NCBI GenBank assembly: GCA_018334695.1
Contig: JAGXLO010000001.1
Span: 7,551 to 71,550, forward strand
Source of the DNA: Candidatus Cloacimonadota bacterium
Lineage (GTDB): Bacteria; Cloacimonadota; Cloacimonadia; JGIOTU-2
Direction: 5' to 3'
Length of the DNA stretch: 64,000 nucleotides
Below are positions 12,482 to 50,025 of the stretch, piece by piece. Every line of letters begins with the position of its first letter. The stretch's first letter is position 1. The position numbers and the translations under genes were made by a program. The notes beneath the pieces are model-generated. The model made no database searches. It worked only from the letters and a program-made list of their open reading frames with translations, and was not told where the DNA came from.

Positions 12482-12512
12482 TTTGCAATAATATCCATCT
12501 AGTAAGGTGATT

Positions 12513-13811
12513 ATGAATGCTCATGAGATAATTATAAAAAAAAGAGATCAAAAGGCATTAACTAAAGCAGAAATAGTCTATTTTGTAGATGAATACTTAA
12601 AAGGCAACATCGAAGAATACCAGATGTCTGCTCTGCTGATGGCAATTTTGCTTAATGGAATGAACTATCAGGAAACCTATTGGCTAACAGAAAGCTATAT
12701 TAATTCTGGGAATACAATAGATTTTGGCAAAACCAATGGTAAATATATCGATAAACATAGTACAGGCGGAGTAGGGGACAAGGTTTCGATAATTTTGGCA
12801 CCCCTGGTGGCAGCTTGCGGTGTATATGATCCTATGATTTCGGGAAGAGGGCTTGGTCATACAGGTGGTACACTTGATAAACTGGAATCTATTCCCGGTT
12901 TCAAAACTAATGTTAAGAAAGAAGAATTTAAAAATTTGGTCGCTAAAAATGGATTTGCTATCATTAGTCAAACCGAGGACCTGGTTCCCGCAGACCATAG
13001 AATTTATGCAGTTAGAGACGTTACCGGCACAGTAGAGAGCATTCCTTTGATTACTGCCAGTATAATGAGTAAAAAAATTGCCTCCGGTATAGATGGACTT
13101 GTTATTGATCTAAAAGTAGGAGCCGGAGCTTTTATGCAAAAGCTGGAACACGGAAAAAATCTGGCAAAATTTTTGAAAAAAGTAGGAGAAGAATTTGGCA
13201 AAAAAGTCAAAGTGGTGTTTACATACATGGACGCACCTTTGGGTTATACTGTGGGAAATGGAATTGAGATAATAGAAAGCATTGAATTCTTAAAAGGTAA
13301 TTACCAAAAAGATCTAAAAGAAGTTGTATTTGCTTTAGCCAAACAAATGCTAATCATGGCAAACCTGACGGATTCAGAAAAAAAAGCTACTGAAATGTTG
13401 CAAAAAGCTCTCGATTCAGGGGGAGCGCTGGAAAAATTTAAGAATTTTGTCAAATTACAAAATGGAGATATAAATATAATTGATGATTATTCTCTATTAG
13501 TTTCTCCCAAATCAGAAATCGAAATAAAGGCTTCTGAAGGTGGATATGTAAAAAAAATTAACAGCCGAGAAATTGGCTGGGCTTTGATAGACGTTAATGC
13601 CGGTAGAAAAGTAATTACAGACAGTTTGCATCACTCGGCCGGATTAGAAATTTACAAAAAAATTGGTGATAAAGTAAAAAAGGGTACAACATTAGCCACT
13701 TTATATTTTAGTAACGATAAGGGAGAAGAAACAGCCAAAAGAATTCAAAAAGCTTTTGAAATTTCTTCATCTAAACCCAAAGGGCATTCAAGAATTATTG
13801 ATATTATTTAA
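12513..13811 (+). CDS. pyrimidine-nucleoside (thymidine) phosphorylase
   Basis: HSTGGVGDKVS phosphate-binding motif, SGRGLGHTGGTLDKLE and the overall ~430-aa architecture of the Pdp/DeoA family. An alternative GTG start lies at 12507. Confidence 0.85.
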   Translation: MNAHEIIIKKRDQKALTKAEIVYFVDEYLKGNIEEYQMSALLMAILLNGMNYQETYWLTESYINSGNTIDFGKTNGKYIDKHSTGGVGDKVSIILAPLVAACGVYDPMISGRGLGHTGGTLDKLESIPGFKTNVKKEEFKNLVAKNGFAIISQTEDLVPADHRIYAVRDVTGTVESIPLITASIMSKKIASGIDGLVIDLKVGAGAFMQKLEHGKNLAKFLKKVGEEFGKKVKVVFTYMDAPLGYTVGNGIEIIESIEFLKGNYQKDLKEVVFALAKQMLIMANLTDSEKKATEMLQKALDSGGALEKFKNFVKLQNGDINIIDDYSLLVSPKSEIEIKASEGGYVKKINSREIGWALIDVNAGRKVITDSLHHSAGLEIYKKIGDKVKKGTTLATLYFSNDKGEETAKRIQKAFEISSSKPKGHSRIIDII

Positions 13812-20259: not shown

Positions 20260-22293
20260 ATGATAGCAATCTTTTTACTTCTAATTATTATTTCAGCCGC
20301 TCTAACATATTTCTACTACCGAGATACAAATCCCCCCCTGTCTAGAAAAAATAAAATATTACTTGGTTCGCTTCGTTTTATATTTTTTCTGATAGTTTTT
20401 ATTCTTCTGCTCTCGCCAGTTTTACACTTTACTGATAAATCCAAAATTCCTCCGGAAGTTGTAATAGCTATTGATAGTAGTGCCAGCATGAAAGAGATAA
20501 TGCAGAATGGAAAAAGTAAATTAGAAAATGCAAGTAACATTGTATCAAATATTGAGCAAGAAGCAAAAAGGAAAAATTTAAAACTAAAAACTTATAATTT
20601 TAGTAATGGACTGAGTTCCGATTCAACTAAAACTGATATTTTCTTAGCCCTTAATCAAATCTCCCAACAGGAACAAGCAAATAATTTAAAGAAAATTATA
20701 CTTATATCAGATGGCTTACACCACAACAGCAATAACTTTAACTTACTGGATAATATCAATGAACCAGTATATCCGATTGAACCGGGAAAACCTAAAAAAA
20801 GTTTTGATATCTCATTAGAATCAATACAAACTAATAACCCTGTATATAAAAATTTTGAAACGGAAATAAAAGCAACTGTTTCCGGTTTGGAAAATAAGAT
20901 GCCAATCAGATTAAGTCTATGGCAAAATGATCAGAAATTATTACAAAAGCAATTCACCGCCACGGCCGGTTCTGAAGATTTTACATTAAATTATCAACCA
21001 ATGAAACTGGGTTATCAGAAGTTTATTCTAAAAATTTCTGCTCCTGAAAATACCGATTCGAATCAAAGAAATAATCAAAAACAATTTCTATTGTATGTGG
21101 TAAAAAATAAATTGCAAATTACATTGATCAGTTCTCAGTTGAATTGGGATCCTACTTTTGTTAATCGAGCTTTAAAAAAGAACAAAAAATTTGAAACAAA
21201 CTTCCTTGTAAAAAGAAAACAAAACTATTTTTCAGACGGCAAAGCAACTAATGTAAAAGAGTTTCTGGATTGTGATCTTCTGATTTTACACAACAATGAA
21301 GAATTTAATTTCTCCGAAACAGTATATGACAGAATTAGTAAATATTTGGAGAACGGTGGAAATATTTTATATCTTAACAAGATTGATCCGGAAATTGAAG
21401 AGATCTTACCTTTACGTTTGAGTAAATACAAAAAAAATGTTGATGCCAAGATAGTATTAACAAAAAATGCCCAGAATTATCAAACATTTAAAGTAGAACA
21501 AAATTGGATGGAGAATGATGAATTTTGGAGATCCTTACCACCTATTACTGCTCAATTTTATTCTGCAAAAAACAATGCACAAGTACTTGCTAAAGCTGAT
21601 ATACCTACCCAGAATCCTGTGATCGCCTTTTCAAGCTATGGTAAAGGTCATGTGATGATATTTGCTTTAAGTGGATTATATCGCTGGAAAATGTGGCAAG
21701 ATTCCGCTAGTCCCTGGTTTGATAATTTTACTAATTCAGTTACAAATTGGCTTATCAATGCTCAAACAGACAAAAGATTTATCTGTAATACAGACAAGTT
21801 GCAATATTTATCCGGGGATGAAATAAAATTTTCTGCTCATGTTTTTGATGAGAAAATGAATACAATTTCAAATCAGGATATCTCCCTAGCGATAACAAAA
21901 AACGATAGTTCATTTCTTAAAAAATATTTGACTGAATCCGCAAATAAATATACTACCCAGGTTACTATTAATGAAACCGGAAGATATAGATACCAGGCAG
22001 AAGCAAAGATCGGAAATAAAGTGTTGACAGATAGCGGTGAATTTTTGGTCGATAAGATGACAAGAGAGCAAAGTACAAAAGGTATTAACAATAATATTCT
22101 GAGTTTTATTGCCAATAAAACCAACGGAAAACTAAATGCAAATATTACTGATTTATTTAACGAAAATTATACAAGTAAAACGGTGAAAACAAAAATTGAT
22201 TTTAATCTCTGGAAAAAATGGTATATCGCTCTGATAGCTATAGCTATTTTTTCTTTAGAATTATTTCTTAGAAAAAGAAAAGGATTATTATGA
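20260..22293 (+). CDS. membrane protein with vWA-like domain (BatA/BatB-like N-terminus)
   Basis: Two N-terminal TM helices are followed by VVIAIDSSASMKE, which resembles the DxSxS MIDAS motif of von Willebrand A domains. A long extracytoplasmic region and a C-terminal TM helix (WYIALIAIAIFSLELFL) follow. 677 aa. Confidence 0.5.
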   Translation: MIAIFLLLIIISAALTYFYYRDTNPPLSRKNKILLGSLRFIFFLIVFILLLSPVLHFTDKSKIPPEVVIAIDSSASMKEIMQNGKSKLENASNIVSNIEQEAKRKNLKLKTYNFSNGLSSDSTKTDIFLALNQISQQEQANNLKKIILISDGLHHNSNNFNLLDNINEPVYPIEPGKPKKSFDISLESIQTNNPVYKNFETEIKATVSGLENKMPIRLSLWQNDQKLLQKQFTATAGSEDFTLNYQPMKLGYQKFILKISAPENTDSNQRNNQKQFLLYVVKNKLQITLISSQLNWDPTFVNRALKKNKKFETNFLVKRKQNYFSDGKATNVKEFLDCDLLILHNNEEFNFSETVYDRISKYLENGGNILYLNKIDPEIEEILPLRLSKYKKNVDAKIVLTKNAQNYQTFKVEQNWMENDEFWRSLPPITAQFYSAKNNAQVLAKADIPTQNPVIAFSSYGKGHVMIFALSGLYRWKMWQDSASPWFDNFTNSVTNWLINAQTDKRFICNTDKLQYLSGDEIKFSAHVFDEKMNTISNQDISLAITKNDSSFLKKYLTESANKYTTQVTINETGRYRYQAEAKIGNKVLTDSGEFLVDKMTREQSTKGINNNILSFIANKTNGKLNANITDLFNENYTSKTVKTKIDFNLWKKWYIALIAIAIFSLELFLRKRKGLL

Positions 22294-39978: not shown

Positions 39979-42900
39979 TTATTCTTGAATTTGTTTCATA
40001 TATTTTTTGATGAGATTGTGATATTTTTCGGGATAATTTTCATAGATTTCTTTAAGGAAATCACGATATTCGATTTTTTCCATATCTAGCTTGAGTGAAT
40101 CAGGTACAGAATATTCAGCCTCATCAGGGCTTTCAGCTCTTCTTTTTTGACTAAAATCGCGCTTATGAATTGACTTTTGGGCATCAAGAAGTCTGGAATA
40201 TATATGTTGCTGTTTTTCCAACAATTCTTCATCAATTGTGCCTTTACGTAACTTTTCTACAACTTCTTCCAGTAATTCTTCTGTAGATTCAAGGTCACCT
40301 AATAATTTTTTTGCTTCCGGATAATCTTTTAGTACTCTTTCCAGATTTTCTTTTATTCTCTGCTCATTGGCAGTTATACGTTCCATCATCTGGCGCTGTT
40401 CCTGGCTCAAACGGGGTGAAGTTTTACCGTTTTGCCCCATCTTTTGCATCATTTGCTGAAAAAGAGCCATAGATAATTGATTGGCCATTTTTTGTCCCTG
40501 GGACATCTGCTGTAATTGCTGCATAAGCTGCTGCATACCACCTCCACTCTGTCCAGATCCGCCGCGTGATTGTAATAAGTCCGAAAGCATTTTGTTAATT
40601 GAATAAAAAATTTCTTCTTTATCCTTTTGCACATTATAATTACGATTATTACGTAGTGCATCAAACATATTTTCAAAAAGATTGAAAGTGGAAGCCGAGT
40701 GTTTCATTATACCTGGATTAATGCTAAACATGATCAAAGGATTCTGAAATAGAGTTTTCATGCTATTTTGTAAACCCTCGTAGATTTCAATCTCTCTATC
40801 CAAAATTTCAAATGCTCCATATTCCCTGGGCAAAATCGTTTCTTGCTGTTTTGAGTAGTATAGCAGGTTCTCTACAGTTCTTTTTATTAACTTTTTAAAC
40901 TTCTCTTGCATAGCATTTTGCATCATCTGTTGAGATTTACAAATGGATGAACACATCTTGCCCATGCATTCTGAAATAGAGTTTTGAGTCTGGGAAGCTT
41001 TGCTCGACTGATTTTTTTTCAACTGCTCAATAGCGTCCTGTAGCTGCTGAGAAAGCTTACTTTGTTCTGCCTCTGACAAGGCTTTTTCGAGTTGTTCAGC
41101 TGCTTTTGACTCTTTGTTTTCTCTTAAGTTTTTGGCCTGTTTCTCAAGCTCTTTTTTAAGCTGCTGATATTTTTTAGATATCTCTTCCTGCTTTTTACTC
41201 AAACCACTCAAGTCCTGATTGTTTTCGCTTCTTTTTTTAGTAAGCTTATTTAATTGATCCTGTAATTTTTTTAATTCATTAGCTTGCTGAATAAGCTTTT
41301 GCATATCCTGTTCCTGTTTTACCTTTTTTAAAAGATTTAGTGTATTCTCCAATCGCTTCAGGAACTTCTCCTGAGAAAACTTGAAATTTTTAAGAGCCTC
41401 TTTCATATCTTCCGGCTTCATTTTCTTTATTGATTCTTGCAGGTCCTTCATAGCTTCTTTTAGCTCAGGAGTTGAAATATCTTCCATCAGTTTTTGTAGT
41501 TCTTTTAATTTTTCCATAGTCTCTTGAGAAGCAAGTTTGTTTTTTTCTACTTCTTCAATGAATTTCTTATATTCTTTGGCAGTTTGTTCAGCTACTTTTG
41601 ACATCTCCTCCTGCTTTTTTAGAATACTTTTAAGATCTTCCTTTTCTTGCCATTCATATTCTTCTTGCTTAAGATATTTTCTTCTTAACTGTTCAAATTT
41701 CTTCTTATTCTTTTCACTTTCCTTAAAGGCTCTGGAAAGATTGTCGGATTGAGATTGCTGTTCTTTATCAATCTCTTCATAAAGCTCTTCTATCGAGGGA
41801 AATTTGAGTAAATAAGTTTTAGATCTCCCAGTTTGTTTTTCAGGTATTGAACAATTATCATAAACTTTGAGAAAATAGCTTATAATGTCCCCGGGCATCA
41901 GATCAATATCACTAACATCAAAAACGAAACTGTCTTTATAAAATGAATTGGTAATATTTTCTGAAATTGTCTCTTCTTTGAATTCATCATTATTCTTTTT
42001 GAAGACGATAGATATTTTGGATAAACCAAAATCGTCCGAGCTGGTAAACAGTATGGTCTCAGTTAGCTGCTTTGCCAAAAGTTTATCCCGTGCAGGTGCA
42101 AGTATTTCAATAGTTGGAGAAAGATCCTCTTCAGCATAAATATTCCTCTCTATAGGCTGATTTTGATTGTTCAATGTATCTACAAGCAAGAAGTGATAAG
42201 TTCCGGTATTTTCTATATTGAACACCGTACTATAGTTGTATTTATTAATTTTATCTAATTTATTGGTTTCCCCATCAGAAAAAATAATCCGATGTTTTTT
42301 CAGATCATTATTAACTAATAAATTTACTGTAATCTTCGTTCCACGAAGTGCTATTACATTTCCGGACGCGTTTTCCTCTGTTTTATCTGGAATATTTGCA
42401 TACTCAGGATAATCATATTTTAGAGTTAATTCTTTGATTGCGGGCTTTGATAAGGTATTTACAAAAAATGTATCAGATGAAGCAAACTCATTTTTTAGAC
42501 AGTAATACATAGTATCTGTAACATTATAGAAAGTATATTTATCAGAAGCCAGATTGACCTGTTTTGTTCTTAAATTCTTTTTTATGAATAGATCATATTG
42601 CAGGTTAGGATTATAATTATCTATTGATATCTGAAGATTTGATCCTCTCAATAATGTTGCATCTCCGGGCTTTATTTCAATTTTTTTATCGTATTTTGGT
42701 GAAAATCTCTCAATATCTGTAAGAGTTATTAAAGAATTATTACACAGACCAGGTAATACCAAGTAGAAAACTAAAATAAAGACAAGAGATATGAATAAAA
42801 TTTTTATATGCCAGAGAACTTTTTGAGGAGGAAAAATCTCACTGTAACCTAAATTCTTTGTAATTTGATTAGCTTTTTTAATGGTAGCTTTTTGGATATC

Positions 42901-43245
42901 CGAAGAGTAAAAATCTTTTTTTGCTTTTTCCAGTTCAAAGGCAGCAAGAATGATTTCTTTGCTTCCCTCTTCAATTTGGGCAATTCTCTGTGCAATTTTT
43001 TTTAGAGAAGTAAAAGACAAACTAGACCTGACCACAAATAAGACCAGCAAAAGAGTAATGATGACTTTATAGATTATACTGATAACTAGGAGTGATTCAT
43101 AACTACTAAGCAGTAAATTTGAAACAAAAGTATAGGTTATAAAGGAAACAATAAGCAATAGAATTAGTATAACAAAGTTTACGAAAATTTGTTGTAGTAA
43201 AAATTTAAGTCTAAATTTTTTTAATTTATTTATATATGAATTCAT
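39979..43245 (-). CDS. large membrane-anchored coiled-coil protein (DUF4175-like)
   Basis: 1088 aa. N-terminal TM helices are followed by a beta-rich extracytoplasmic region. Then comes ~450 aa of K/E/Q-rich coiled coil and Q/G/M-rich low-complexity blocks (GGSGQSGGGMQQLMQQLQQMSQGQKM). The architecture is reminiscent of DUF4175 / Bat-operon-associated proteins. The family call is from memory only. Confidence 0.5.
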   Translation of the reverse strand: MNSYINKLKKFRLKFLLQQIFVNFVILILLLIVSFITYTFVSNLLLSSYESLLVISIIYKVIITLLLVLFVVRSSLSFTSLKKIAQRIAQIEEGSKEIILAAFELEKAKKDFYSSDIQKATIKKANQITKNLGYSEIFPPQKVLWHIKILFISLVFILVFYLVLPGLCNNSLITLTDIERFSPKYDKKIEIKPGDATLLRGSNLQISIDNYNPNLQYDLFIKKNLRTKQVNLASDKYTFYNVTDTMYYCLKNEFASSDTFFVNTLSKPAIKELTLKYDYPEYANIPDKTEENASGNVIALRGTKITVNLLVNNDLKKHRIIFSDGETNKLDKINKYNYSTVFNIENTGTYHFLLVDTLNNQNQPIERNIYAEEDLSPTIEILAPARDKLLAKQLTETILFTSSDDFGLSKISIVFKKNNDEFKEETISENITNSFYKDSFVFDVSDIDLMPGDIISYFLKVYDNCSIPEKQTGRSKTYLLKFPSIEELYEEIDKEQQSQSDNLSRAFKESEKNKKKFEQLRRKYLKQEEYEWQEKEDLKSILKKQEEMSKVAEQTAKEYKKFIEEVEKNKLASQETMEKLKELQKLMEDISTPELKEAMKDLQESIKKMKPEDMKEALKNFKFSQEKFLKRLENTLNLLKKVKQEQDMQKLIQQANELKKLQDQLNKLTKKRSENNQDLSGLSKKQEEISKKYQQLKKELEKQAKNLRENKESKAAEQLEKALSEAEQSKLSQQLQDAIEQLKKNQSSKASQTQNSISECMGKMCSSICKSQQMMQNAMQEKFKKLIKRTVENLLYYSKQQETILPREYGAFEILDREIEIYEGLQNSMKTLFQNPLIMFSINPGIMKHSASTFNLFENMFDALRNNRNYNVQKDKEEIFYSINKMLSDLLQSRGGSGQSGGGMQQLMQQLQQMSQGQKMANQLSMALFQQMMQKMGQNGKTSPRLSQEQRQMMERITANEQRIKENLERVLKDYPEAKKLLGDLESTEELLEEVVEKLRKGTIDEELLEKQQHIYSRLLDAQKSIHKRDFSQKRRAESPDEAEYSVPDSLKLDMEKIEYRDFLKEIYENYPEKYHNLIKKYMKQIQE

Positions 43246-45938: not shown

Positions 45939-47411
45939 CTACTTTACAGAAGTAAAGAATTCCTTTGCTTTTTCTCTAAATTTATCCTTACCTGCAATTA
46001 ATTTAGTAGTAATTGGAGCCACTTTTTTTGCTTCATTCACAATAAAATTTGCCACTTCCCTTATCTCCCATTGAGCATGTTTATCCTGGCGCAATCTGGC
46101 AAAATTGCAAAGCTCACGAATATTTAATTTAAAAAGCACAGCTTTATGGTGGGCATTAGTTAAAACATAGTTTTTTACCTGCGGTATTTTGTCGGCAAAA
46201 ACAGTATAAACAGAATTTGTATAAGAAACTATATTATTAAAAATATTTTCTAAATCTGCATTTTTTATGGCGGTAGGTATAGTTACACCGTATTCAGGAC
46301 AATAATCAGAAGTTAGTACTGATGAAAGTCGATGCCGTTTTAGTTGTGCAAAGCAGGATGAGCTTATATTAAGTTGATATGTAAGATCTGCATATTCAAA
46401 AGAACGAGGTAATGGATCATAGCTTTCTATGTTTTGCAAATTTTTCTTCAGAAAATTTAATTTTTCATCATAATCCATATTTTCTAATTCAATTTTAAGA
46501 ATTTCATAAGATTCGCCCGTTTTACGAAACAACAGAGCAGCCAAAATATTAACATCGATATTGGGGGAATAATTTAATAATTTATTTTCTATTCCATCAT
46601 AAATTTTATTATTTTTGTTGCTAAAATTGTAAAGTCCCCTGTCATAAGAGGATGGTTCTACATAACGAATCAAGGAAGGAGTGCGATTTTTCGCCAGATG
46701 ATATAATTTATCGGCTAGTTCGGAAGCTTCTTTGAATTTTTGTGAATACAATCTTTTTAAAAGCCTTTCCAGACTCCTGGCATTTATAGTCATACCCATT
46801 TGAGTTTTTGTGGACAAAGAAAGGACATATCGGGCATCTTCTTTTGCTTTTGACTCCAGTTCCCGTCTGGATTTATTCTGCAGATTTTCATTTTTGTGAT
46901 TATAGTAATATATCAACTTATTATAAAGTTCAAAGTAAGCCTTATTCTGTTTTTCAATCAGCTCTAAAAATTGTTCTTTTAATTCTATACGCGCATCCAA
47001 TTCTATGGGTGTAACAAAATCACCATCAAGAGTAACATATCTCTGAGACTTTTCTGTATAAGAGGCAAGTCTTGTTCTCTGAACAAACTCGATTAAATAG
47101 CGCGAGATACCAATTATATCAAAATTGAAGACTGCATGTTCGGCAATAGAACTGTGCCCCATATCAAATACAATGTTTTTATTGGACTTACGAGCTCTGG
47201 TTACATTTTTTATGGCAATTTGTCTTAATACATCTACAGCTTTTTGGGAACGACTAATACGTGCATAAGCAGCTGAGATTGTCTCGGGAGTAAGTTCAAT
47301 TTTCTCCAATATTTTTTCAGCTTCGGTCAAATTACCACCATTACTAATTTGATTAAATAGCTTATCAAAAAGAGAAATATCTAGATTAAAACCGGCTAAA
47401 TTTACTTTCAT
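45939..47411 (-). CDS. thyX: flavin-dependent thymidylate synthase ThyX family, tandem-domain form
   Basis: The N-terminal half matches the ThyX core (AYARISRS; HSSIAEHAVFNFDIIGISRYLIEFVQRTRLASYTEKSQRY versus the canonical H.S.FEH..FTF.......RHR..S..E.S.RY). The downstream NARSL and RQDKHAQWEIRE blocks match ThyX too. A second, more divergent ThyX-like copy (KRHRLSSVLTSDY) fills the rest of the 490 aa. Confidence 0.65.
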   Translation of the reverse strand: MKVNLAGFNLDISLFDKLFNQISNGGNLTEAEKILEKIELTPETISAAYARISRSQKAVDVLRQIAIKNVTRARKSNKNIVFDMGHSSIAEHAVFNFDIIGISRYLIEFVQRTRLASYTEKSQRYVTLDGDFVTPIELDARIELKEQFLELIEKQNKAYFELYNKLIYYYNHKNENLQNKSRRELESKAKEDARYVLSLSTKTQMGMTINARSLERLLKRLYSQKFKEASELADKLYHLAKNRTPSLIRYVEPSSYDRGLYNFSNKNNKIYDGIENKLLNYSPNIDVNILAALLFRKTGESYEILKIELENMDYDEKLNFLKKNLQNIESYDPLPRSFEYADLTYQLNISSSCFAQLKRHRLSSVLTSDYCPEYGVTIPTAIKNADLENIFNNIVSYTNSVYTVFADKIPQVKNYVLTNAHHKAVLFKLNIRELCNFARLRQDKHAQWEIREVANFIVNEAKKVAPITTKLIAGKDKFREKAKEFFTSVK

Positions 47412-47418
47412 AATTAAT

Positions 47419-49197
47419 TTAGGATAGATTTAATTTCGCAAGTGTTTCAGCAGTTGGTTTTCCTTCGTTATCCCAACCACGTAATTCGTAATATTCATTC
47501 AGCATCTTATCTAATTCTACTACTCTGTTTCTGGAGGAACCGGTTTTTAATTTATCATTTAAAAAACGTTCAGGTAAAATATCGTCATCTCTTTTAAAAC
47601 CGGCCTCTACATTGAATTTGCGTTCCAGATTATATATTCGGGTTCCAATTTTCACAGCGTCATCTCCAGTTAAGTTAGAACCAGTTACCAGATTAACGAT
47701 TTTAGCAAAATTATCAATGCCAATTGCAAATTGTAAAAACCTACATAAGATAGTTGAATCCACAAAGGCTGATATATCCTGAAAGAGACTAACTATTCTT
47801 GCTTTTCCTGCTGTAGAAAATCTATTCAAATTAACAGGCTGACCCAGTATTTCCGGACCTATCATATAAGCTCTCATATGGCAGCCACCTCTATTAGATG
47901 TTGCATAAGCTAAGGCAAGACCCTGAGCACCACGCGGATCGTAAGCAGGTAATTCTAACCCTTTTACCTCCATAGCTAATTGTGGTTTTCCATATTTTTT
48001 AGCTAGTCTCTTAGCACCAAGAGAAAGTTCTTTACCAACTCCTTTTCTCAAACCAATTTTTTTGACCAGCTCCACAAGTCTATCAGCATCTCCCCATCTA
48101 ATATTGTCTGGAAAAAGTCCTTTTTCAGAAAGTTCCATAGCACATCCGATGGTGTTACCGGCTGAGATTGTATCAATTCCCATTTCATTGCAAATATAGT
48201 TAGCTTCCGTAACAGCCTTAAGGTCACTAATTCCTAATTGAGCTCCAAAAGCCCATACAGTTTCATACTCGGGACCTTCTCCTTTTTTATTATCCGTTTC
48301 TGTTGATCTGCCACAAGCAATCGGACATTTATAACAGGCACTCTGTTTTTTTAGAATATTTTCTGATATCTTCTGTCCACTTATACCCTCTGCATCATTA
48401 AAAACTCCTTTTTGAAAATTTTTAGTAGGAAACATTCCATGCTTATTTATGGTATCAACCAAAACAGAGGTACCCAGAGCAGGTAGCAATTTACCAGTAA
48501 CTGGATTTTTCTTTACCAATCTATTTAAAAAACTTTTGAAATTTTTTAGCTCTTCCGGATAGGCGATGGATGTTTTCTTAGTACCATATGCTACCAGTGC
48601 CTTTAAGTTTTTTGATCCCATTACAGCTCCCAAACCACCTCTGCCTGTAGCTCTATCTTTATCGTTCATAAGAGCTGCGAAGAGTACTTTGTTCTCACCT
48701 GCTTGCCCAATACAGGTAATACTTGCCTTGGGATTTACTTCTTGAGCTATGATATCTCTTGTTTCATGAGTGTTTTTTCCCCATATATTTGTTGCATCAC
48801 GTATTTCAACAGAGTCATCAGTAATATTAACATAGACCGGATTTTTTGCTTTTCCCACAAATATCAAACCGTCGAATCCTGCTTCCTTTAAACGCATACC
48901 GAATAATCCACCCGAGCTTGAATCGCAAATAGTATTTGTGAGCGGGGAACGAGAAATAACCTGGAATCTACCAGATGTAAGAACAGTTCCGGTTAAAGGA
49001 CCGGTCATAAATATTAATGGATTTTCAGCATCAAATGGTTTTATATTAGGGCTTGATAAATCAGTAAACAATTTTACACCAACTCCCCTACCTCCCAAAA
49101 AATTTTCTCGGGTACTATCAGTAAGCTCAATTTCTTCTTGTTCATTATTTGAAAGGTTAATTTTTAATATTTTATTCATCCAGCCAGCCATATTCAC
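47419..49197 (-). CDS. aor: aldehyde:ferredoxin oxidoreductase (tungsten-containing AOR family)
   Basis: 592 aa. The AOR N-terminal domain starts (G)WMNKILKINLSNNE, like YGxAGKILRVDLT in other family members. The [4Fe-4S]/pterin ligand cysteines sit in CYKCPIACGR, and the family length is conserved. Confidence 0.8.
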   Translation of the reverse strand: MNMAGWMNKILKINLSNNEQEEIELTDSTRENFLGGRGVGVKLFTDLSSPNIKPFDAENPLIFMTGPLTGTVLTSGRFQVISRSPLTNTICDSSSGGLFGMRLKEAGFDGLIFVGKAKNPVYVNITDDSVEIRDATNIWGKNTHETRDIIAQEVNPKASITCIGQAGENKVLFAALMNDKDRATGRGGLGAVMGSKNLKALVAYGTKKTSIAYPEELKNFKSFLNRLVKKNPVTGKLLPALGTSVLVDTINKHGMFPTKNFQKGVFNDAEGISGQKISENILKKQSACYKCPIACGRSTETDNKKGEGPEYETVWAFGAQLGISDLKAVTEANYICNEMGIDTISAGNTIGCAMELSEKGLFPDNIRWGDADRLVELVKKIGLRKGVGKELSLGAKRLAKKYGKPQLAMEVKGLELPAYDPRGAQGLALAYATSNRGGCHMRAYMIGPEILGQPVNLNRFSTAGKARIVSLFQDISAFVDSTILCRFLQFAIGIDNFAKIVNLVTGSNLTGDDAVKIGTRIYNLERKFNVEAGFKRDDDILPERFLNDKLKTGSSRNRVVELDKMLNEYYELRGWDNEGKPTAETLAKLNLS

Positions 49198-49200
49198 TCC

Positions 49201-50025
49201 TTATTCATAAAATTTATTATATTTATTCTTGTATTTACAGTTTGAGCATCTTTTTTTGTAATATTTGAATATTGATTTGGGGACTGAGGTAATGGAAACA
49301 TGTCTTGCGGGACAGATATGGCAAGGAATTTCCGGTTCAAGCCAGGCATCTTCGGCATATTTATACAGGGACAGACCTTCTAATATTGAGACTCCGGCGC
49401 TGGCTCCTATTCGGTTTGCACCAGCTTTGATTAGACGCCAGGTATCTTTAAAATTTTTAATACCACCAGCGGCTTTCACACCAATATTAGCTCCAACTGT
49501 TTCTCTCATAAGCTTTACATGTTCAGGCAAAGCACCAAAAGCTCCGAACCCGGTAGAAGTTTTTACAAATTTGGCTCCGGCAGAAACTGAGATTTCACAT
49601 CCTTTCACTATTTGTTCATTTGTAAGATAACAGTTCTCTAGTATTACTTTAACATGCGCAGGATAACTAGCTTCTACTACTTTTCTTATATCCCTTTCCA
49701 CATACTCATAATCACCTTCTCTGAGTAATCCATTATTTATTACCATATCTATTTCCCCGGCACCATCTTCCACTGCTTTTTTTGCTTCTGCAGCTTTTAC
49801 CTCTGTCTTATTTGCACCAAGAGGAAAACCTGCAACTACACAAACTTCTACGTTCGTATTTTTTAGTATATCACTAGCAAATTTTGTATGGCAGGAATTA
49901 ATGCATACTGAATAAAATCCAAAATTTACGGCATCTTCACAAAGTTTTTTTATTTTTTTCTTGCCCGATGAAGCTTTTAACTCGGTATGATCAATCATTT
50001 TTGCTAATTCTTTTCTGGTAATCAT
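49201..50025 (-). CDS. deoC: deoxyribose-phosphate aldolase with C-terminal Cys-rich (zinc-ribbon-like) extension
   Basis: DeoC motifs MIDHTELK, VCVVAGFPLGA and the Schiff-base lysine region KFVKTSTGF are present. A ~55-aa tail carrying CHICP...CSNCKYK follows the aldolase barrel, which is not standard for DeoC. Confidence 0.8.
   Translation of the reverse strand: MITRKELAKMIDHTELKASSGKKKIKKLCEDAVNFGFYSVCINSCHTKFASDILKNTNVEVCVVAGFPLGANKTEVKAAEAKKAVEDGAGEIDMVINNGLLREGDYEYVERDIRKVVEASYPAHVKVILENCYLTNEQIVKGCEISVSAGAKFVKTSTGFGAFGALPEHVKLMRETVGANIGVKAAGGIKNFKDTWRLIKAGANRIGASAGVSILEGLSLYKYAEDAWLEPEIPCHICPARHVSITSVPKSIFKYYKKRCSNCKYKNKYNKFYE

What the first reader, a model, noticed from the sequence alone, without database searches (positions are those of the whole stretch)
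45939..47411. Tandem-duplicated ThyX-like protein with RHR->RTR substitution in the first domain and a degenerate second domain
Residues ~60-140 align well to the ThyX core (HSSIAEHAVFNFDI...QRTRLASYTEKSQRY versus the canonical ...FEHxxFTFxI...RHRxxSxxExSxRY). The downstream NARSL and RADSHAQWEIQ-like blocks also match, but the protein is 490 aa, about twice ThyX. A second copy carries RHRLSSVLTSDY, which has the RHR but not the Ser/Arg-Tyr. The first copy has Thr in place of the motif His. Because the ThyX active site is built across subunits, a fused pseudo-dimer with complementary half-motifs is plausible. Alternatively it may be a ThyX-fold enzyme with another substrate.
Basis: partly seen in the sequence, partly recalled or inferred. 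Interest (0 to 1): 0.5.

Follow-up and report, generated by a model that had tools for sequence, protein, structure and literature searches.

The report
Two-domain fused ThyX thymidylate synthase
This gene encodes an ordinary member of a large, already annotated family of double-length flavin-dependent thymidylate synthases, in which two fused copies of the enzyme fold each keep a different half of the catalytic residues and probably build shared active sites together.

Summary

It is not an oddity. At least 586 species genomes encode the same 440-570 aa architecture, and it forms 384 clusters at 50% identity. These include Cloacimonadota (the likely source), Syntrophales, Aminicenantes, Omnitrophota and WOR-3. 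Named database entries call it "FAD-dependent thymidylate synthase".

Across 143 diverse members the two halves keep complementary residues:
- The N-half always keeps the dUMP/catalytic set (R104, E120, S122, R124, R194; Y125 in 140/143) and the folate-stacking His (H86). Its "RHR" position is free-running (about 30 variants; RTR is one).
- The C-half always keeps QxKRHR and the dUMP-activating Arg (R441, 142/143), but has lost the Ser-x-Arg loop, R74 and R147.

Published subunit assignments for M. tuberculosis ThyX put these two sets on different subunits of one active site. The best model is therefore a homodimer that mimics the ThyX tetramer, with two working and two vestigial sites.

The annotation is not novel. 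No structure of a two-domain ThyX was found in the PDB.

The parts
45939..47411 (-). Complete ORF (490 aa plus stop) for a two-domain flavin-dependent thymidylate synthase (ThyX).
   Evidence: Its start lies 7 nt downstream of the stop of the AOR gene (47419..49197), so it is probably co-transcribed with it.
46626..47411 (-). N-terminal ThyX domain, residues 1-262 (core about 40-250). It carries the substrate and catalytic-loop residues.
   Evidence: hhalign vs T. maritima ThyX 97.1%, E=6e-11. Mean pairwise identity across the family is 47%, with 39 columns at least 95% conserved.
47136..47159 (-). GHSSIAEH (residues 85-92). H86 corresponds to T. maritima H53, S88 to M. tuberculosis S71, and E91/H92 to E58/H59.
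   Evidence: H86 is present in 143/143, S88 in 138/143, E91 in 141/143 and H92 in 141/143. Coordinates checked.
47037..47078 (-). N-half ThyX motif RTRLASYTEKSQRY (residues 112-125). The first two positions are variable; R114 and the S117...E120-K-S122-Q-R124-Y125 part are fixed.
46827..46844 (-). KEDARY (residues 190-195). R194 corresponds to T. maritima R147, a dUMP phosphate binder.
   Evidence: R194 is present in 143/143.
46584..46688 (-). Inter-domain linker, residues about 242-276. It is not conserved and has lower model confidence.
   Evidence: No column in 251-276 reaches 95% conservation. The pLDDT dips to 63 for residues 261-270.
45942..46625 (-). C-terminal ThyX domain, residues 263-490 (core about 277-470). 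It carries the flavin-binding RHR and the dUMP-activating Arg.
   Evidence: hhalign vs T. maritima ThyX 98.3%, E=2e-14. Mean pairwise identity is 35%, with 17 columns at least 95% conserved.
46302..46346 (-). QLKRHRLSSVLTSDY (residues 356-370). Q356, K358, R359, H360 and R361 are at least 95% conserved (four of them 143/143). The Ser-x-Arg part of the motif is lost (T367, D369); Y370 is kept.
46062..46097 (-). RLRQDKHAQWEI (residues 439-450). R441 corresponds to T. maritima R174 and H445 to H178.
   Evidence: R441 is present in 142/143, H445 in 115/143, Q447 in 141/143 and W448 in 138/143.
46149..46169 (-). YVLTNAH (residues 415-421). This C-half-specific conserved block sits where canonical ThyX has R147. 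The R147 equivalent is N414, which varies across the family as E/P/D/S/A.
   Evidence: Y415 at least 95% conserved. Its role is unknown.

Best explanation
The gene encodes a flavin-dependent thymidylate synthase (ThyX/FDTS, EC 2.1.1.148) of the two-domain subfamily. An ancient internal duplication fused two ThyX domains, and each then lost a different part of the active-site equipment.

Shown here:
- There are two ThyX folds in one chain.
- The N-half keeps, without exception across the family, the residues that bind dUMP and carry out catalysis in canonical ThyX. These are R104 (T. maritima R74), E120 (E86), S122 (S88), R124 (R90), Y125 (Y91) and R194 (R147), plus H86 (H53, the folate-stacking His).
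- The C-half keeps the flavin-binding R359-H360-R361 with Q356, and R441 (R174, which activates dUMP).
- The reciprocal positions are variable or replaced. The N-half triplet is 'xxR', here RTR. In the C-half R74 has become A/G, R90 has become P/D/N, and R147 has become E/P/D.

Inferred:
- In canonical tetramers the RHR/R174 set and the R74/S88/R90/Y91 set of one site come from different subunits. Each working site of this protein is therefore composite: the C-half plays 'subunit A', an N-half plays 'subunit C', and most likely the other N-half plays 'subunit B' (H53 region plus R165).
- Two chains would then form a homodimer that mimics the 222 tetramer, with two working sites and two vestigial ones.
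- That predicts about one catalytic FAD per 490-aa chain.
- The chemistry is presumed unchanged: NADPH reduces FAD, methylene from CH2-THF passes via flavin N5 to C5 of dUMP, and dTMP is released.
For: - Family membership: Pfam and NCBIfam scores are above their curated cutoffs.
- Residue mapping comes from hhalign.
- Conservation counts come from 117 close members and 143 diverse members.
- Subunit roles come from the M. tuberculosis/H. pylori structure description. RHR and R199 are on subunit A, S71 and R190 on subunit B, and R87/S105/R107/Y108 on subunit C (PMC6514825).
- S88, Y91 and R90 are catalytic (PMC11940539). R174 activates dUMP (PMC8316439).
- The family is large and widespread: at least 586 species genomes and 384 clusters at 50% identity with E<=1e-30. 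Sources name it FAD-dependent thymidylate synthase.
- Inteins in two family members sit inside the N-half GH|S and xHRL|CSFTEKSQRY motifs, as expected for functionally critical sites.
- There is no thyA and no second thyX in the window (the ThyA query was verified).
Against: - There is no biochemical or oligomer-state evidence for this protein or, as far as I could verify, for any two-domain member.
- The model coordinates could not be inspected. I could not determine which tetramer interface the intramolecular N-C contact reproduces.
- The N-half still keeps R114 (R80 equivalent, 141/143), and often R or K at the R174 position (101/143). The 'vestigial' sites may therefore not be entirely dead.
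- The subunit role of R147 and H53 is taken by analogy, not from a quoted source.
- Whether the genome has thyA or another thyX elsewhere is unknown.
Confidence: 0.72

Rival explanations
1. It is a ThyX-fold enzyme that methylates or modifies a different substrate (for example UMP, as PolB does, or another nucleotide) and is not a thymidylate synthase.
Confidence: 0.1
2. The N-half alone forms the working sites, with N-N' pairs supplying both the 'A' and 'C' roles. The C-half is then only a structural or regulatory partner, for example a flavin-only or NADPH-binding module.
For: The N-half keeps R114 in 141/143 and R or K at the R174 position in 101/143. It has His at the H79 position in 44/143. 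It is the more conserved half (47% against 35% identity).
Against: The first two positions of the N-half triplet drift freely, with about 30 combinations. In contrast, Q356, R359, H360 and R361 are 143/143 and R441 is 142/143 in the C-half. That pattern is hard to explain unless those residues do the flavin and dUMP work. A flavin bound away from dUMP could not transfer the methylene.
Confidence: 0.12
3. It is a decaying or non-functional duplicate, that is a pseudo-enzyme, and dTMP is made by another enzyme elsewhere in the genome.
For: Neither domain has the complete canonical motif. The rest of the genome could not be searched.
Against: The reading frame is intact. Dozens of columns are at least 95% conserved in both halves across hundreds of species in many phyla. 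A 99%-identical copy exists in another assembly.
Confidence: 0.03

Closest known systems
Canonical homotetrameric ThyX/FDTS (T. maritima TM0449, PDB 1O26/1KQ4; M. tuberculosis Rv2754c, 2AF6/3GWC; H. pylori, 3AH5)
   Different: Here two domains are fused in one 490-aa chain. The contiguous motif RHRxxSxxxxSxRY is split: xxR...SQRY in the N-half and RHR...DY in the C-half. The predicted assembly is a homodimer with two working sites, not a homotetramer with four. No PDB ThyX chain that matched is longer than 270 aa.
Database-annotated two-domain 'FAD-dependent thymidylate synthase' proteins of Cloacimonadota, Syntrophales (including Syntrophus buswellii DM-2, locus L055), Aminicenantes, Omnitrophota and WOR-3
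   Same: They share the same architecture, length and split motifs. Identity is 99% to P0001, 59-65% to the nearest other Cloacimonadota proteins and 40-47% to other phyla.
   Different: Nothing of substance. This protein has T at the free-running H79-equivalent position, as do 40 of 117 close relatives. An AOR gene is inserted between deoC and thyX.
PolB, UMP/dUMP C5-methylase of polyoxin biosynthesis (PDB 4P5A)
   Different: PolB is single-domain and sits in a biosynthetic gene cluster. It is a weaker structural match than true ThyX enzymes.
Chlamydia trachomatis ThyX (Griffin et al. 2005, J Biol Chem 280:5456; the citation was seen)
   Same: From memory only, the chlamydial enzyme is about 529 aa. 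If so, it may be a characterised two-domain member with demonstrated FDTS activity.
   Different: This could not be verified here. No held paper gives its length or domain structure, and the afdb50 library was unavailable.
[quoted passage not shown]
   Same: Two representatives of this two-domain family carry inteins in N-half motifs.
   Different: The window protein has no intein. The paper is not held, so the link is a lead, not a test.

Membership tests
ThyX / FDTS superfamily (Pfam PF02511 Thy1; NCBIfam TIGR02170 thyX) | Sequence match above the curated family thresholds | tested here: met
   PF02511 scores 205.6 bits against 24.8, with two stretches. TIGR02170 scores 137.9 bits against 87.9.
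ThyX / FDTS superfamily (Pfam PF02511 Thy1; NCBIfam TIGR02170 thyX) | ThyX alpha/beta fold | tested here: met
ThyX / FDTS superfamily (Pfam PF02511 Thy1; NCBIfam TIGR02170 thyX) | Contiguous ThyX motif RHRxxSxxxxSxRY within one domain | tested here: not met
   The N-half has RTRLASYTEKSQRY, with no His. The C-half has RHRLSSVLTSDY, with no Ser-x-Arg. The motif is complete only when the two halves are combined. This marks the protein as the two-domain subfamily, not a canonical single-domain ThyX.
ThyX / FDTS superfamily (Pfam PF02511 Thy1; NCBIfam TIGR02170 thyX) | Full complement of active-site residues available to one site (H53, R74, R78, H79, R80, S88, R90, Y91, R147, R165, R174) | tested here: met
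   All are present once: H86, R104, S122, R124, Y125, R194 and R212 in the N-half, and R359, H360, R361 and R441 in the C-half. That they meet in space is an inference.
ThyX / FDTS superfamily (Pfam PF02511 Thy1; NCBIfam TIGR02170 thyX) | Bound FAD, NADPH oxidase activity and CH2-THF-dependent dUMP to dTMP conversion | not testable with these tools
   This needs purified protein or thyA complementation.
ThyX / FDTS superfamily (Pfam PF02511 Thy1; NCBIfam TIGR02170 thyX) | Homotetramer with four sites, each formed by three subunits | not testable with these tools
   Only a monomer could be modelled. A homodimer (pseudo-tetramer) is predicted instead.
Two-domain ThyX subfamily (database-defined: 440-570 aa, two Thy1 domains) | Two Thy1 domains in one chain with full-length collinear similarity to other members | tested here: met
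   Coverage is 98-100% against more than 100 members. All of the top 150 cluster representatives align across both halves.
Two-domain ThyX subfamily (database-defined: 440-570 aa, two Thy1 domains) | Subfamily signature: N-half GHSS[VI]AEH and xxRLxS[FY]TEKSQRY; C-half QLKRHR and RLRxDxHAQW[DE]I | tested here: met
   All four blocks are present at residues 85-92, 112-125, 356-361 and 439-450.
PolB-type UMP/dUMP methylase | Closer structural or sequence similarity to PolB than to ThyX, and a nucleoside-antibiotic gene cluster context | tested here: not met
Sole thymidylate synthase of its genome (thyA-negative organism) | Absence of thyA and of a second thyX in the genome | tested here: inconclusive
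   Neither is present in the 64-kb window (queries verified) or in 80 related loci. The rest of the genome is not available.

The most novel reading that the evidence does not exclude
The whole two-domain ThyX family may work as a homodimeric pseudo-tetramer with only two composite active sites. No solved structure was found for this arrangement, and I could not find it described. The two vestigial pockets still contain residues conserved in at least 95% of members (R336, K358 and Y415 in the C-half, R114 in the N-half). They may have been re-used for something else, such as binding a regulatory nucleotide or a second pyridine nucleotide or flavin.
Probability: 0.2. Interest if true: 0.45.

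Novelty: already known. Interest (0 to 1): 0.22.

Why it matters
For genome annotation it matters little, because the gene is correctly called a FAD-dependent thymidylate synthase by standard models.

The broader point is a clean case of subfunctionalisation after fusion in an enzyme whose active sites span subunits. Each half keeps only the residues for its own role. As a result, motif-based checks such as RHRxxSxxxxSxRY wrongly flag both halves as defective.

The model predicts half the number of active sites and flavins per unit mass compared with canonical ThyX. That would matter for kinetic and inhibitor work on any two-domain ThyX.

Tried and rejected
- Literature. Eight full-text searches used combinations of ThyX with tandem, pseudo, duplication, fused, two-domain, Chlamydia, CT632 and Cloacimon*. 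I also searched within seven ThyX papers. None describes a two-domain ThyX. Three key papers are not held: Liu and Yang 2004, Koehn 2012 and Leduc 2004.
- Chlamydia ThyX. I tried to confirm that it is a two-domain member. The afdb50 fold library was unavailable. Names of ten 529-797 aa representatives gave only one label, Nanoarchaeota. This remains a recollection.
- A second thymidylate synthase. tblastn with verified E. coli ThyA and T. maritima ThyX found nothing else in the window or in 80 related loci. The whole genome could not be reached.
- A nucleoside-metabolism operon as a hint of another function. deoC-thyX adjacency is conserved only within Cloacimonadota (7 of 8 loci). The other neighbours are unrelated housekeeping genes (PSP1, a nucleotidyl transferase, MeaB, Lon, MgtE, GNAT). 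I rejected this as evidence for a different substrate.
- Recent duplication or assembly artefact. I rejected this because the halves share no BLASTP-level similarity and the architecture is conserved across phyla.
- Phage origin. Phage ThyX hits are mostly single-domain and at most 36% identical.

Full report
**1. What is there**

Window 45939..47411 (minus strand) is an intact ATG-initiated ORF of 490 aa.
- GHSSIAEH at residues 85-92
- RTRLASYTEKSQRY at 112-125
- NARS at 210-213
- QLKRHRLSSVLTSDY at 356-370
- RLRQDKHAQWEI at 439-450

The family assignments are strong:
- Pfam gives Thy1 (PF02511) at E=7.8e-61 with two matched stretches.
- NCBIfam gives the thyX equivalog TIGR02170 at 137.9 bits against a cutoff of 87.9.
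- PDB sequence hits are only ThyX chains. The N-half matches the M. tuberculosis and Corynebacterium type, and residues 409-468 match T. maritima ThyX.

Profile comparisons show that each half is a ThyX domain and that the halves are homologous to each other:
- N-half vs T. maritima ThyX: 97.1%, E=6e-11
- C-half vs T. maritima ThyX: 98.3%, E=2e-14
- N-half vs C-half: 96.8%, E=3e-10

BLASTP sees no similarity between the halves. This is therefore an old duplication, not a recent one or an assembly artefact.

**2. Structure**

An AF2 model built on 83 family sequences is confident, with mean pLDDT 90.6 and pTM 0.88. The only dips are at residues about 121-130 and in the linker at about 261-270. 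Both halves repeat the same order of secondary-structure elements.

**3. It belongs to a large, already annotated family**

The word-indexed search found 5591 homologues. The best 120 are nearly all 440-530 aa, and those with names are called 'FAD-dependent thymidylate synthase'. They come from Cloacimonadota (the nearest, 59-65% identical, plus one 99% identical copy), Smithella, Elusimicrobiota and WOR-3.

The exhaustive search of 50% cluster representatives found 384 clusters at E<=1e-30. Nearly all of the top 150 are 440-570 aa and align over both halves.

The best 80 come from Cloacimonadota, Syntrophales (including the cultured Syntrophus buswellii DM-2), Aminicenantes, Omnitrophota, WOR-3 and others. 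The window itself is ordinary low-GC bacterial chromosome carrying gyrBA, ruvCA, fusA and fab genes, and is most likely Cloacimonadota.

**4. The halves are complementary**

I mapped residues to T. maritima numbering by hhalign (the T. maritima sequence was verified against 1KQ4). I then counted them in 143 diverse representatives.

| Half | Kept | Variable or lost |
|---|---|---|
| N-half | H86 (H53) 143/143; S88 138; E91 141; H92 141; R104 (R74) 143; R114 (R80) 141; E120 (E86) 143; S122 (S88) 143; R124 (R90) 143; Y125 (Y91) 140; R194 (R147) 143; R212 (R165) 141 | R78 equivalent is H/R/K/S/A/E/Q; H79 equivalent is H 44, F 32, S 23, T 10, R 10; R174 equivalent is R 81, K 20, with various other residues in the remaining 42 |
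| C-half | Q356 (Q75) 143/143; R359, H360, R361 143/143; R432 (R165) 139; R441 (R174) 142; H445 (H178) 115; Q447 141; W448 138 | R74 is A/G in 142; S88 is P/A/T/S/V; R90 is P 51, D 28, N 11; R147 is E/P/D/S/A; the H53 equivalent is hydrophobic |

The N-half triplet occurs in about 30 combinations, with RHR in only 5 of 143 and RTR in 3. Among 117 closer relatives it is [KRH][FTS]R, with T in 40. The 'RHR->RTR substitution' is therefore one state of an unconstrained position, not a feature of this protein. Both halves are under constraint: mean pairwise identity is 47% in the N core and 35% in the C core, and the linker is not conserved.

**5. Why this pattern makes sense**

The published description of the M. 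tuberculosis and H. pylori enzymes assigns the residues of one active site as follows (PMC6514825):
- The RHR motif, and R199 (T. maritima R174), belong to subunit A.
- S71 and R190 (T. maritima T55 and R165) belong to subunit B.
- R87, S105, R107 and Y108 (T. maritima R74, S88, R90, Y91) belong to subunit C.

S88, Y91 and R90 are the catalytic residues (PMC11940539). R174 activates dUMP (PMC8316439).

The conserved set of the C-half is exactly the 'subunit A' set, and that of the N-half is exactly the 'subunit C' set. The N-half also keeps the 'subunit B' elements (the H53/S71 loop and R165).

In a 222 tetramer made of two N and two C domains, this requires the A-C relation to be an N-C pair. 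That gives two complete sites (C-half as A, N-halves as B and C). It also gives two sites in which all three roles fall on degenerate residues.

This is an inference. I could not inspect model coordinates or model a dimer, and the subunit that supplies R147 and H53 is taken by analogy.

**6. Supporting and side observations**

- Two representatives of the family (795 and 797 aa) carry inteins. One is inserted in the N-half GH|S loop and the other in xHRL|CSFTEKSQRY. Inteins typically sit in functionally critical motifs, which fits the N-half being catalytic.
- deoC lies immediately upstream of thyX in 7 of 8 Cloacimonadota loci. In this window an aldehyde:ferredoxin oxidoreductase gene is inserted between them and ends 7 nt before the thyX start. 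The adjacency is limited to this phylum, and I do not read function from it.
- No thyA and no second thyX occur in the window (queries verified) or near the gene in 80 related loci.

**7. Rivals**

- A different substrate, as in PolB, is unlikely. Every dUMP contact is at least 98% conserved, and canonical ThyX structures match better than PolB.
- An N-half-only enzyme with a purely structural C-half does not explain the 143/143 conservation of Q356, R359, H360 and R361 (R441 is 142/143), set against the drifting N-half triplet.
- A decaying duplicate is excluded by conservation across hundreds of species.

**8. Novelty and limits**

The protein is a routine member of an annotated family, and a 99% identical sequence is already in public data. 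I therefore rate it as already known and of low interest.

Two questions remain open. No two-domain ThyX chain is among the PDB matches. Eight literature searches and several papers yielded no description of the split-motif, half-of-sites arrangement (see the record of what was tried). I recall that chlamydial ThyX is about 529 aa and has been characterised biochemically, which would make the architecture experimentally known. I could not verify this with the tools available.

Noticed in passing
window 49201-50025 (-): The DeoC-family aldolase ORF (274 aa) has a Cys-rich C-terminal tail of about 55 aa (...PCHICPARH...CSNCKYKNKYNKFYE) beyond the Pfam DeoC match (residues 9-213). deoC is the conserved immediate upstream neighbour of the two-domain thyX in 7 of 8 Cloacimonadota loci.
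   Followed up: partly
window 47419-49197 (-): An aldehyde:ferredoxin oxidoreductase gene sits between deoC and thyX only in this window. Its stop is 7 nt before the thyX start. Of the 80 related loci, only one non-Cloacimonadota locus (L052) has an AOR nearby. DeoC produces acetaldehyde, so a deoC-aor pair would make metabolic sense.
   Followed up: partly
P0203 (795 aa) and P0226 (797 aa), representatives of the two-domain ThyX family: Both carry inteins (LAGLIDADG or Intein_splicing Pfam hits) in the N-half. One is inserted in the GH|S loop and the other inside the ThyX motif xHRL|CSFTEKSQRY.
   Followed up: partly
window 12507-13811 (+): A pyrimidine-nucleoside (thymidine) phosphorylase gene is present. 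The organism can therefore interconvert thymidine and thymine in addition to any de novo dTMP synthesis.
   Followed up: no
window 39979-43245 (-) and 20260-22293 (+): Two large ORFs (1088 aa and 677 aa) have no Pfam match at the thresholds used (E<=1e-3 and E<=1e-5).
   Followed up: no
phage records MT835736.1 (16506-17711) and PP885688.1 (46534-47715): Two phage records match the query over about 1.2 kb in one piece (71-87% of the query). They may therefore encode two-domain ThyX proteins. The other listed phage and archaeal-virus hits examined are single-domain, with matches of about 600 nt.
   Followed up: no
window 46149-46169 (-), residues 415-421, plus R336 and K358: Several C-half-specific residues have no counterpart in canonical ThyX: Y415, R336 and K358 are at least 95% conserved across 143 diverse members, and L417/N419 are invariant and H421 over 90% among closer relatives. 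They lie where the lost dUMP-binding residues would be, and their role is unexplained.
   Followed up: no
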